Shown here: positions 8,545 through 8,615 of the stretch, in pieces | Layout: every line of letters starts with the position of its first letter | Numbering within the stretch: the first letter of the stretch is position 1 | Virus record (IMG/VR): IMGVR_UViG_3300028833_000063 | Location: 1 to 64,000 of that record | DNA: 64,000 nucleotides | DNA from: a virus | Taxonomy: Duplodnaviria; Heunggongvirae; Uroviricota; Caudoviricetes | Reading direction: 5' to 3' (one strand) | Notes under the pieces: model-generated | Seen by the model: only the letters and a program-made list of their open reading frames with translations | The model's database searches: none | What the model was told of the DNA's origin: nothing | Position numbers and translations under genes: made by a program

Positions 8545-8615
8545 AGTCCCTTAGCGTAATGGTAGCGCAATGGACTTTGACTCCATATGTGTTGGTCCGA
8601 TTCCAACAGGGACTG
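8545..8615 (+). tRNA. tRNA-Gln (TTG)
   Basis: acceptor agtccct/agggact, D-arm gcgtaatggtagcgc, anticodon arm atgga-ctTTGac-tccat, T-loop gttgg-tccgatt-ccaac. Confidence 0.7.

What the first reader, a model, noticed from the sequence alone, without database searches (positions are those of the whole stretch)
8545..8615. A canonical tRNA-Gln(UUG) is present but no CUA suppressor was found
The window carries at least 14 tRNAs (Thr, Arg, Phe, Lys, Ile, Trp, Ser x2, Gln, Ala, Cys, Leu-like and others). I could fold none with a CUA anticodon. Recoded phages usually encode their own suppressor. It may lie outside this 64 kb, may be one of the irregular tRNA-like elements I could not fold (6521-6606, 53722-53858, parts of 312-1177 and 3610-3817), or may come from the host.
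Basis: partly seen in the sequence, partly recalled or inferred. Interest (0 to 1): 0.6.

Follow-up and report, generated by a model that had tools for sequence, protein, structure and literature searches.

The report
Amber suppressor tRNA lies just upstream
The tRNA-Gln(UUG) in this phage window is an ordinary tRNA, and the "missing" TAG-reading suppressor tRNA sits 4.6 kb upstream of the window in the same genome, where it carries an unusually long extra arm.

Summary
Window 8545-8616 (+) is a real tRNA-Gln(UUG). The window carries 15 confident tRNAs and none has a CUA anticodon. TAG is a sense codon here, but only in a few genes. One 969-codon ORF has 23 in-frame TAGs.

The suppressor lies outside the window. 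A near-identical assembly (ENA k141_3897225; 1 mismatch in 12,850 shared bases) has a tRNA(CUA) at window coordinates -4702..-4617. It sits at the head of the same tRNA array, on the same strand, behind the same TTGACT-N17-TATAAT promoter type.

It is not a plain tRNA-Gln paralog. It is 86 nt long, with a 7/5 acceptor/T configuration, A1-U72, G2-C71, G73 and a 19-nt variable arm. It scores below Rfam's tRNA threshold.

Syntenic relatives carry it, and an anticodon-arm scan of IMG/VR found about 45 contigs carrying long-arm relatives. Covariation supports every helix, the extra arm included.

TAG alternates with CAA/CAG at invariant Gln columns, so TAG codes for Gln, not Ser.

The recoding itself is ordinary. 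The class-II-shaped Gln suppressor is the interesting part, and I found no description of it in three full-text searches.

The parts
8545..8616 (+). tRNA-Gln(UUG), the focal gene. It is an ordinary class I tRNA for CAA/CAG and not the recoding agent.
   Evidence: ARAGORN; Rfam tRNA 67.7 bits; cloverleaf minimum-free-energy fold. It is the best in-window match to the suppressor model, but only at 47.7 bits against 77-100 bits for true members. It is absent at the same position in relative L166, which keeps the suppressor.
1..311 (+). Left edge of the window. The tRNA array continues upstream. The suppressor tRNA(CUA) is at window coordinates -4702..-4617, which is L003 3054-3139 and ENA k141_3897225 79353-79438.
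   Evidence: L003 overlaps window 1-12850 with 1 mismatch. ARAGORN finds tRNA(cta) at L003 3053-3140. The family covariance model scores it at 76.8 bits.
240..8616 (+). In-window part of the phage tRNA array: 15 confident tRNAs, none with a CUA anticodon.
23108..26017 (+). 969-codon ORF of unknown function with 23 in-frame TAG codons and no TAA or TGA. It is the strongest evidence for recoding in the window.
   Evidence: Full-length homologs P0001-P0016 exist. No Pfam or PHROG hit. Treating TAG as sense raises + strand coding coverage of 24-28 kb from 0.59 to 0.96.
4965..5978 (+). Family 2 glycosyltransferase gene with 3 in-frame TAGs (5040, 5520, 5559).
   Evidence: The TAG at 5040 aligns with Q of TagF (SIKQQ) in PDB 3l7i and with D next to Q in 5tze.
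19944..20711 (+). HNH homing-endonuclease gene with 2 in-frame TAGs.
26066..26512 (+). 148-codon ORF (phrog_37604, function unknown) with 3 in-frame TAGs.
6521..6608 (+). It is not a suppressor.
   Evidence: Found by ARAGORN only at ps90; model R1 gives 19.9 bits; contains no CTA.
It has a Leu-type D arm, a UGCAAAU T-loop and about 95 nt in between. It is not a suppressor.
   Evidence: No Rfam match; contains no CTA. Similar-looking elements follow tRNA-Ser(GCU) in L166 (read by eye, no alignment made).
82..110 (+). One of 19 perfect TTGACW-N17-TATAAT promoter-like sites, all on the + strand. The same type precedes the suppressor.
   Evidence: 0.04 expected by chance; L003 2581-2609

Best explanation
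The window is part of the tRNA-array and replication region of a large cow-rumen phage; the contigs are 152 and 188 kb. The phage reads TAG as glutamine in some genes.

The gene at 8545-8616 is a normal tRNA-Gln(UUG) that serves CAA and CAG codons and plays no special part in recoding.

UAG is decoded by a dedicated phage tRNA with anticodon CUA. It is encoded 4.6 kb upstream of the window, at the head of the same tRNA array, on the same strand, about 450 nt downstream of a consensus sigma-70-type promoter of the kind found 19 times in the window.

This tRNA has a normal 7-bp acceptor stem and 5-bp T stem, a CUCUAAA anticodon loop, a weak A1-U72 pair, G2-C71 and discriminator G73. Unusually for a Gln decoder, it also has a 19-nt variable arm.

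The following steps are inferred, not shown. The tRNA is made early by host RNA polymerase. Host GlnRS charges it with Gln, because U35 in a CUA anticodon, a weak 1-72 pair and G73 are GlnRS determinants. It must outcompete RF1 efficiently, because one gene needs 23 consecutive read-through events. The role of the long arm is unknown; a protein handle or an orthogonality element is a guess.
For: tRNA-Gln(UUG) is real. There is no CUA tRNA in the window by ARAGORN at default and relaxed settings, by Rfam, by the family covariance model or by a loop scan.

Recoding is real. One ORF has 23 in-frame TAGs in 969 codons with no TAA or TGA. TAA plus TGA make up 4.6% of codons in the +1 frame of the genes, so an open run of that length is about 1e-20 by chance. 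Only TAG-as-sense closes the coding gaps at 20-28 kb.

The suppressor is at L003 3053-3140, on a contig that matches the window with 1 mismatch in 12,850 nt. Long-arm CUA tRNAs sit in the same position after the radical-SAM gene in 12 related IMG/VR loci. The exact sequence occurs in 4 JGI rumen contigs and 1 IMG/VR contig; three of the JGI copies, the ones ARAGORN delimited, end ...GCGGGCUG-CCA, which fixes A1-U72 and G73. In L166 it again heads a 26-tRNA array.

The family is supported by covariation. In 31 distinct sequences, 89.5% of cells are paired against 71% in shuffles. 25 of 27 pairs show double changes. The variable-arm helix is 80.6% paired with 5 of 6 pairs covarying. Sliding the partners collapses pairing to 37-55%.

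TAG codes for Gln. The radical-SAM TAG positions 28, 137 and 340 are 100% Q in 51 homologs. At DNA level TAG alternates with CAA/CAG; for example, position 340 has CAA 19, CAG 2 and TAG 2. Over 22 orthologs, 57 TAGs in 26 columns align to Q at 22.5% (10x background) and S at 5.2% (0.9x). The best BLOSUM fit is Q at 1.29 against S at -0.02.

A promoter lies at L003 2581-2609, of the same type as the 19 in the window.
Against: The suppressor was read on a near-identical assembly, not on the window's own record. The 188-kb JGI contig that matches the window exactly ends at window position ~963, and the JGI scan for the tRNA did not return it.

Only about 92 kb of a genome of at least 152 kb was inspected, so further suppressors, a release factor or a GlnRS elsewhere cannot be excluded.

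Charging with Gln is inferred from codon substitution and recalled identity rules, not measured. A long variable arm plus G73 are the main serine determinants (PMC9976931).

The own-phage tRNA scores below Rfam's tRNA threshold (tRNA-Sec 27.7 bits, E = 0.035), and its fold energy is no better than that of shuffles (z = -0.14).

The arm of the own subfamily pairs in a different register from the main family and rests on only 3 distinct sequences.

Expression timing and competition with RF1 are untested.
Confidence: 0.85

Rival explanations
1. The long-arm tRNA(CUA) is charged by SerRS, or is charged ambiguously, so TAG is read as Ser or as a Ser/Gln mixture.
For: The tRNA has a 19-23 nt variable arm and an invariant G73. 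[quoted passage not shown] Some family members also have C72. Some phages carry both a long-arm and a 75-nt CUA tRNA, which could mean two different charging identities.
Against: Residues aligned to TAG are Q at 10x background and S at 0.9x. Three own-phage TAGs fall on columns that are 100% Q, where TAG alternates with CAA/CAG. Position 1-72 is A-U, U-A or mismatched rather than the G1-C72 of the phage's own tRNA-Ser. The arm stems are short, at 4-6 bp.
Confidence: 0.1
2. The tRNA-Gln(UUG) at 8545-8616 itself reads UAG through near-cognate pairing (G36-U at the first codon position, U34-G wobble). No dedicated suppressor would then be needed.
For: It is the only Gln tRNA in the window. Near-cognate read-through of UAG by tRNA-Gln is known at low level (own knowledge, not checked here).
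Against: A cognate tRNA(CUA) exists in the genome. With 23 TAGs in one ORF, even 90% efficiency per codon yields about 9% full-length product, and 1% read-through yields about 1e-46. The anticodon arm is canonical, with a 5-bp stem. Relative L166 keeps the suppressor and carries a different, tRNA-like element where the tRNA-Gln(UUG) would be.
Confidence: 0.03
3. The suppressor is supplied by the host or by a co-infecting element, and the phage tRNA(CUA) is a relic.
For: Borges et al. detected TAG suppressors in only 40% of TAG-recoded phages (10.1101/2021.08.26.457843).
Against: The tRNA(CUA) is conserved in position and structure, with compensatory changes, across many relatives. That indicates purifying selection.
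Confidence: 0.03
4. One of the irregular tRNA-like elements inside the window (6521-6606, 53722-53858, 312-1177 or 3610-3817) is the suppressor.
For: These stretches look GC-rich and structured by eye, and two have tRNA-like arms.
Against: The first two contain no CTA at all. The other two contain no NU-CUA-RN loop closed by a stem. Neither ARAGORN at relaxed thresholds nor the family model R1 places a CUA tRNA in any of the four. Rfam, which covered 1-10,000 and 53,000-54,500, finds nothing there either.
Confidence: 0.01
5. The TAG-interrupted ORFs are pseudogenes or assembly artefacts and there is no recoding.
For: Only about 5-6 of about 80 genes in the window contain internal TAGs.
Against: There are 23 TAGs and no other stop codon in 969 codons. 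Full-length homologs exist in many independent assemblies, the one checked at DNA level (L008) having its own TAGs mostly at different positions. TAG sits at invariant Q columns.
Confidence: 0.01

Closest known systems
Phage-encoded amber suppressor tRNAs of TAG-to-Gln (code 15) phages, such as crAss-like phages, Lak phages and the clades of Borges et al.
   Same: A phage tRNA with a CUA anticodon accompanies in-frame TAGs that align with Gln. Replication genes are TAG-free.
   Different: The tRNA has a 19-nt variable arm (class II shape), and the own-phage copy falls below Rfam's tRNA threshold. In this window TAG is used in a glycosyltransferase, a homing endonuclease, a radical-SAM enzyme and unknown ORFs that sit behind early-type promoters, rather than in recognisable structural or lysis genes.
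E. coli supE (tRNA-Gln CUA) and su+7 (tRNA-Trp CUA, mischarged with Gln)
   Same: A CUA anticodon with U35, a weak 1-72 pair and G73 are the features GlnRS uses (own knowledge, not checked here). The window's tRNA-Gln(UUG) and tRNA-Trp(CCA) are the best non-family matches to the suppressor model.
   Different: supE and su+7 are class I tRNAs with 4-5 nt variable loops. Sequence similarity does not show which isoacceptor the phage tRNA derives from.
Class II tRNAs and supD-type tRNA-Ser(CUA)
   Same: A long variable arm with a base-paired stem, and G73.
   Different: The 1-72 pair is weak or mismatched instead of G1-C72, and the body is not Ser-like. A genuine Ser-bodied CUA tRNA looks quite different (L106, GGAGAGAUGCCGGAGCGG...). 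TAG aligns with Gln, not Ser.
allo-tRNAs with 8/4 or 9/3 acceptor/T stems (Mukai et al., PMC5389517)
   Same: Non-canonical long-arm tRNAs found in metagenomes, some of them in phages and rumen bacteria, some with stop-codon anticodons.
   Different: This tRNA has a 7/5 configuration. ARAGORN's apparent 8th acceptor pair in L003 is a flanking T-G, and CCA-bearing copies fix the 3' end.
tRNA-Pyl (ARAGORN's label for the gene)
   Same: Only the CUA anticodon.
   Different: As I recall it (not checked here), tRNA-Pyl has a 3-nt variable loop, a 6-bp anticodon stem and a small D loop. None of these is present.

Membership tests
Bacterial-type tRNA-Gln (focal gene 8545-8616) | Cloverleaf with 7/5 stems that scores above the Rfam tRNA threshold | tested here: met
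   67.7 bits against a threshold of 29; the minimum-free-energy fold is a cloverleaf.
Bacterial-type tRNA-Gln (focal gene 8545-8616) | Anticodon UUG or CUG in a 7-nt loop with U33 and a purine at position 37 | tested here: met
   The loop is CUUUGAC.
Bacterial-type tRNA-Gln (focal gene 8545-8616) | Weak 1-72 pair, G2-C71 and G73 (GlnRS determinants, recalled from memory) | tested here: met
   A1-U72, G2-C71 and discriminator G.
Bacterial-type tRNA-Gln (focal gene 8545-8616) | Aminoacylation with Gln | not testable with these tools
   Needs biochemistry.
Phage amber suppressor tRNA for TAG-to-Gln recoding (L003 3054-3139) | CUA anticodon in a 7-nt loop with U33 and a purine at position 37 | tested here: met
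   The CUCUAAA loop is invariant in 31 family members.
Phage amber suppressor tRNA for TAG-to-Gln recoding (L003 3054-3139) | tRNA fold supported by covariation | tested here: met
   25 of 27 pairs show double changes and 89.5% of cells are paired against 71% in shuffles. Caveat: the own-phage copy alone has z = -0.14 and is below the Rfam threshold.
Phage amber suppressor tRNA for TAG-to-Gln recoding (L003 3054-3139) | The same genome has in-frame TAGs in conserved genes | tested here: met
Phage amber suppressor tRNA for TAG-to-Gln recoding (L003 3054-3139) | TAG positions correspond to Gln in homologs | tested here: met
Phage amber suppressor tRNA for TAG-to-Gln recoding (L003 3054-3139) | The tRNA is expressed, charged with Gln and used at UAG | not testable with these tools
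   Needs RNA-seq, an aminoacylation assay and proteomics.
Class I architecture expected of tRNA-Gln | Variable loop of 4-5 nt | tested here: not met
   19 nt in the own phage and 19-23 nt in the 7 syntenic relatives measured, and of similar length across the 31 aligned members, with a covarying stem.
tRNA-Ser (class II) | Long variable arm plus G73 | tested here: met
tRNA-Ser (class II) | G1-C72 acceptor end and a Ser-type body | tested here: not met
   The pair is A1-U72, and it is unpaired in 13 of 31 relatives. The phage's own tRNA-Ser(GCU) has G1-C72.
tRNA-Ser (class II) | The decoded codon corresponds to Ser | tested here: not met
   S is at 0.9x background in TAG columns.
allo-tRNA (8/4 or 9/3) | 12-bp acceptor branch split 8/4 or 9/3 | tested here: not met
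   The covarying stems are 7 bp and 5 bp. CCA-bearing copies define the 3' end.
tRNA-Sec | UCA anticodon, 8/5 stems and a 6-bp D stem | tested here: not met
   CUA anticodon, 7/5 stems and a 4-bp D stem. Rfam tRNA-Sec gives 27.7 bits against a threshold of 47.

The most novel reading that the evidence does not exclude
The suppressor belongs to a so far undescribed, widespread family of class-II-shaped glutamine amber suppressors in large rumen and gut phages.

Its features are a 7/5 acceptor/T configuration, a weak or mismatched 1-72 pair, G73, usually a C27-U43 mismatch, and a 19-23 nt arm that often carries a CUGAAG loop.

The added arm would not be decoration. It would be a functional handle, for example for a phage factor that switches TAG decoding on, or a device that makes the tRNA orthogonal to host nucleases or modification enzymes.

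Divergent members, such as the own-phage subfamily and L021 950-1037, escape standard tRNA models. That could account for part of the roughly 60% of TAG-recoded phages in which no suppressor has been found.
Probability: 0.3. Interest if true: 0.65.

Novelty: new variant of a known kind. Interest (0 to 1): 0.4.

Why it matters
The open point in the finding is closed. The phage does encode its own UAG decoder, so no host-supplied or exotic mechanism is needed. The tRNA-Gln(UUG) can be annotated as ordinary.

The window should be annotated with code 15, otherwise a 969-aa gene, a glycosyltransferase and others are broken into fragments.

More broadly, a Gln-decoding tRNA with a long variable arm breaks the textbook rule that only Ser, Leu, Tyr and Sec tRNAs are class II in bacteria. 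It appears in dozens of large-phage contigs. If the arm has a function, it offers a natural example of an engineered-looking suppressor and a possible control point for code switching.

It also shows that covariance-model thresholds can miss phage suppressors.

Tried and rejected
1. Comparing stop-to-stop ORF lengths under each recoding scheme was uninformative in this AT-rich DNA. I replaced it with a non-overlapping ORF tiling.

2. A megablast of 12 kb against GenBank phages found no match.

3. ARAGORN with introns and low thresholds gave dozens of spurious calls. These include a minus-strand 'Pyl(cta)' at 1620-1702 and an intron-containing one at 36003-36616, both inside + strand coding genes. 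I rejected them as noise.

4. I tried to infer the amino acid from the 969-aa protein family. Close homologs are themselves recoded and were translated with Q, so the test is circular. One distant homolog at 32% identity was uninformative. I switched to the radical-SAM family at the DNA level.

5. Pairwise similarity of the suppressor, with or without its arm, to 168 phage tRNAs did not identify a parent isoacceptor; Trp, Ile, Lys and Gln all scored similarly.

6. ARAGORN's 8-bp acceptor stem and its tRNA-Pyl label were rejected after comparison with relatives and with CCA-bearing copies.

7. A JGI scan for the suppressor did not return the 188-kb contig that matches the window exactly. That contig ends at window position ~963, so it cannot show the upstream region.

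8. The small ORF between the radical-SAM gene and the suppressor is a Lys/Glu-rich protein, not a CXXX-repeat peptide.

9. Three literature searches found no description of long-arm Gln suppressors.

Full report
**The observation**

ARAGORN finds 15 tRNA genes in the window, all on the + strand between 240 and 8616. One is tRNA-Gln(UUG) at 8545-8616, and none has a CUA anticodon. Rfam confirms 14 of them as tRNA at gathering threshold, with the Gln gene at 67.7 bits. It scores the fifteenth, Ser(GGA), only as tRNA-Sec at 43.9 bits.

The Gln gene folds as a cloverleaf at minimum free energy, z = -2.4. It has A1-U72, G2-C71, discriminator G, loop CUUUGAC and a 5-nt variable loop. Its only irregularity is a UCCGAUU T-loop.

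Relaxing ARAGORN adds a Ser(CGA)-like gene at 6521-6608 and a Tyr(GUA)-like gene at 603-689. It also gives obvious noise.

**Is the phage recoded?**

All convincing genes are on the + strand. A non-overlapping ORF tiling covers 81.6% of the window with the standard code and 87.5% if TAG is sense. The whole gain comes from a few places; 24-28 kb goes from 0.59 to 0.96. Making TGA sense gives no gain.

- ORF 23108-26017 has 23 in-frame TAGs and no TAA or TGA in 969 codons.
- A family 2 glycosyltransferase (4965-5978; Pfam 2.4e-22) has 3.
- An HNH endonuclease (19944-20711) has 2.
- ORF 26066-26512 has 3.

TAA plus TGA make up 4.6% of codons in the +1 frame of the genes. An open 969-codon run is therefore not a chance event.

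The replication genes contain no internal TAG: DnaE-type polymerase, GyrA/B, DnaB and RecJ. Recoding is real but sparse here, in roughly 5-6 of about 80 genes.

**Where the window comes from**

The DnaE protein is found on JGI contig Ga0310694_10000039 (188,323 bp) and on ENA contig k141_3897225 (151,741 bp). Rfam families named cow-rumen-3 and cow-rumen-4 match the flank, which points to a cow-rumen origin.

The JGI contig shows 0 mismatches in 14,431 shared bases. The ENA contig shows 1 in 12,850 and 6 in 14,431. The JGI contig ends at window position ~963. The ENA contig extends 84 kb upstream.

**The suppressor**

Locus L003 is ENA 76300-96905, and L003 position equals window position plus 7756. 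There the tRNA array continues upstream with Glu, Asp, Asn, Met and Ile(UAU). At its head, at L003 3053-3140, is a tRNA with anticodon CUA. That is window -4702..-4617, which is 13.2 kb upstream of the tRNA-Gln(UUG).

It lies about 470 nt after a radical-SAM/SPASM gene that itself has 8 in-frame TAGs. It lies about 450 nt after a TTGACT-N17-TATAAT site. That promoter type occurs 19 times on the + strand of the window against 0.04 expected.

**Anatomy of the suppressor**

ARAGORN draws 8 acceptor pairs and labels it tRNA-Pyl; I take the label to reflect only the CUA anticodon. Comparison with relatives and with JGI copies ending ...GCGGGCUG-CCA gives this layout:

- a 7-bp acceptor stem, AGCCCGU/GCGGGCU
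- a 4-bp D stem
- a 5-bp anticodon stem with loop CUCUAAA
- a 19-nt variable region
- a 5-bp T stem with loop UUCGAUU
- discriminator G73

Rfam does not recognise it as a tRNA. The best match is tRNA-Sec at 27.7 bits, E = 0.035. Its fold energy is no better than that of shuffles, z = -0.14.

**A family, not a one-off**

A search of IMG/VR with the radical-SAM protein family gave 80 loci. Twelve of the closest relatives carry an 86-92 nt CUA tRNA in the same position. A covariance model built from 9 of them scores family members at 77-100 bits and ordinary tRNAs at 54 bits or less. It finds no copy in the window; the best window hit is the tRNA-Gln(UUG) at 47.7 bits. It also recovers a deviant member that ARAGORN missed, L021 950-1037.

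Scanning IMG/VR for the 16-nt anticodon arm CCGGTCTCTAAAACCG gave 75 loci. About 45 have variable regions of 15-25 nt, often ...CCCUCUGAAGGAGG.... Sixteen have normal 4-5 nt loops.

I aligned 31 distinct long-arm sequences and counted pairs:

- 89.5% of cells are paired, against 71.0 ± 0.9% in shuffles.
- 25 of 27 pairs show changes on both sides.
- Sliding the partners drops pairing to 37-55%.
- The variable-arm helix is 80.6% paired, with 5 of 6 pairs covarying.
- The 1-72 pair is unpaired in 13 of 31 sequences.
- The 27-43 pair is a C-U mismatch in 27 of 31 sequences.
- The discriminator G is invariant.

The main family passes Rfam's tRNA threshold at 51.7 bits. The own-phage subfamily (L003, L012, L025) does not. 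Its arm seems to pair in another register (UCUG/CGGA, UUUG/UAGA), but that rests on 3 sequences.

The exact own-phage tRNA occurs in 4 more JGI rumen contigs and in IMG/VR UViG_3300021387_001034. There it again heads a 26-tRNA array.

**Which amino acid?**

A long arm plus G73 are the main serine determinants (PMC9976931), so Ser had to be excluded.

- In 51 radical-SAM homologs (50-91% identity), own-phage TAG positions 28, 137 and 340 are 100% Q.
- At DNA level, in 25 loci, TAG alternates with CAA/CAG at these columns. Position 340 has CAA 19, CAG 2 and TAG 2. Position 137 has CAA 8, CAG 7 and TAG 7. Orthologs with no TAG at all show CAA/CAG there.
- Pooling 57 TAGs in 26 columns of 22 orthologs, the aligned sense residues are Q 22.5% (10x background), K 19.5%, E 12.7% and S 5.2% (0.9x). 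The best BLOSUM62 fit is Q at 1.29, then E at 1.02 and K at 0.95, with S at -0.02.
- The glycosyltransferase TAG at 5040 aligns with Q of TagF.

TAG therefore codes for Gln.

The acceptor end (weak 1-72, G2-C71, G73) together with U35 matches what I recall of GlnRS recognition, including the mischarging of su+7 tRNA-Trp(CUA) with Gln. That is recalled knowledge, not a result obtained here.

**Mechanism and rivals**

With 23 TAGs in one ORF, 90% read-through per codon gives about 9% full-length product. A cognate, abundant suppressor is therefore required. Near-cognate reading by tRNA-Gln(UUG) cannot suffice.

In L166 the suppressor is kept but the tRNA-Gln(UUG) slot after tRNA-Ser(GCU) holds a different, tRNA-like element. 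This further separates the focal gene from recoding.

Regions 6521-6606 and 53722-53858 have no CTA. The other two have no CUA stem-loop.

Not shown here: expression timing, charging, competition with RF1, and the role of the arm.

**Comparison with what is known**

Phage-encoded CUA suppressors in TAG-to-Gln phages are well known. [quoted passage not shown] Neither that paper nor three full-text searches mention a long variable arm on a Gln suppressor.

The tRNA is not an allo-tRNA (8/4 or 9/3; PMC5389517), not a tRNA-Sec and not a tRNA-Pyl.

**Verdict**

The finding is explained. The concept is ordinary: the suppressor sits just outside the window. The suppressor's architecture is a new variant worth a note.

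Noticed in passing
window 1826-2071 (Rfam reports 1769-2014); ORF 1294-1827; HNH ORF 2245-2850: A group I intron (RF00028, 95 bits) interrupts the last two codons of a 177/179-aa ORF. An intron-less allele (L004) reads ...GGAGAG TGG CCG TAA. In the window, exon 1 ends at T1825, the intron ends at G2071, and exon 2 (GGCCGTAA) starts at 2072. Splicing restores ...GEWP*, and the unspliced form ends ...GE*. A free-standing HNH endonuclease gene follows.
   Followed up: yes
window, 19 sites from 82-110 to 59518-59546, all on the + strand: There are perfect TTGACW-N17-TATAAT promoter-like sites with a shared A/T-rich spacer (...AAAATTT.T..), against 0.04 expected by chance. The TAG-rich 969-codon ORF and the suppressor tRNA both sit behind promoters of this same type, so recoded genes here do not look like a separate late class.
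   Followed up: partly
L016 4549-4624, compared with L015 14015-14088 (relatives, not the window): A 76-nt AT-rich tRNA(CUA) with A73 and an encoded CCA is inserted inside the anticodon loop (after CUU) of a tRNA-Ile(UAU) gene, directly upstream of tRNA-Gln(UUG). The otherwise identical L015 has the uninterrupted tRNA-Ile. This is a tRNA gene nested in a tRNA gene.
   Followed up: partly
L003 7254-7384 (window -502..-372); also L021 6083-6199, L023 3816-3931 and L024 4516-4633: tRNA genes carry 45-50 nt hairpin insertions in the anticodon loop. In the own phage it is a tRNA-Leu(UAA), interrupted after CUUA; I recall the classical tRNA-Leu group I intron sitting at about this site. Relatives have an intact 85-nt gene. 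The insert is too small for a group I intron, and the splicing route is unknown.
   Followed up: partly
window 11826-12359, 12361-12927, 13022-14548, 18654-19880: There is a kinase (AAA_33) plus metallophosphatase pair that resembles T4 Pnkp, a Ro60-like RNA-binding protein (phrog_850, DUF2828/DUF7788) and an RNA ligase. Together they look like a tRNA repair or RNA quality-control kit, which might process the interrupted tRNAs or bind Y-RNA-like elements.
   Followed up: no
window 53723-53870; similar-looking elements at L166 12084-12225 and 12247 onwards: These are roughly 145-nt tRNA-like composite RNAs: an acceptor-like stem AUGCGGU/UCCGCAU, a Leu-type D arm GGUGGCGGAAUAGGUAGAC, a UGCAAAU T-loop, and about 95 nt in place of the anticodon arm. 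Rfam gives no match. They may be Y-RNA-like; a weak YrlA hit (37 bits) occurs in relative L012 at 6466-6532.
   Followed up: partly
window 312-930, 1006-1178, 2936-3109, 3183-3330, 3614-3817, 3897-4028, 4250-4433, 4509-4652, 4727-4852, 7435-7700: The spacers between the tRNA genes look long and GC-rich by eye (no composition profile was run) in a 37% GC genome, and have no Rfam match. In the upstream flank, comparable spacers match cow-rumen-3 (L003 6717-6862, 130 bits) and cow-rumen-4 (L003 2612-2675, 65.6 bits). cow-rumen-4 follows the radical-SAM gene in this phage and in the three relatives checked.
   Followed up: partly
window 931-1005, 4173-4249, 4434-4508: The three tRNA-Leu genes (AAG, CAA, CAG) are only 75-77 nt, which is class I shape without the long variable arm usual for bacterial tRNA-Leu. 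The Gln-decoding suppressor, by contrast, has a long arm.
   Followed up: no
window 23108-26017: This 969-aa protein, in which 23 of its 56 Gln codons (41%) are TAG, has no Pfam or PHROG match. It is conserved at full length in related large phages (27-92% identity), the one checked at DNA level having its own TAGs mostly at other positions. Its function is unknown.
   Followed up: partly
window 7010, 8110, 56077: Some genes reach a TAG within 2-31 codons of the next TAA or TGA; for example, DnaB has TAG at 56077 and TAA at 56098. Whether TAG still terminates these early genes or adds short Gln-containing tails is unresolved. The two public gene callers disagree (527 against 534 aa).
   Followed up: no
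L092, L115, L128, L134, L147, L148, L151 (IMG/VR): Several large phages carry both a long-arm CUA tRNA and a separate 75-78 nt class I CUA tRNA with a U1-C72 mismatch and G73. The two could be redundant or could have different roles.
   Followed up: no
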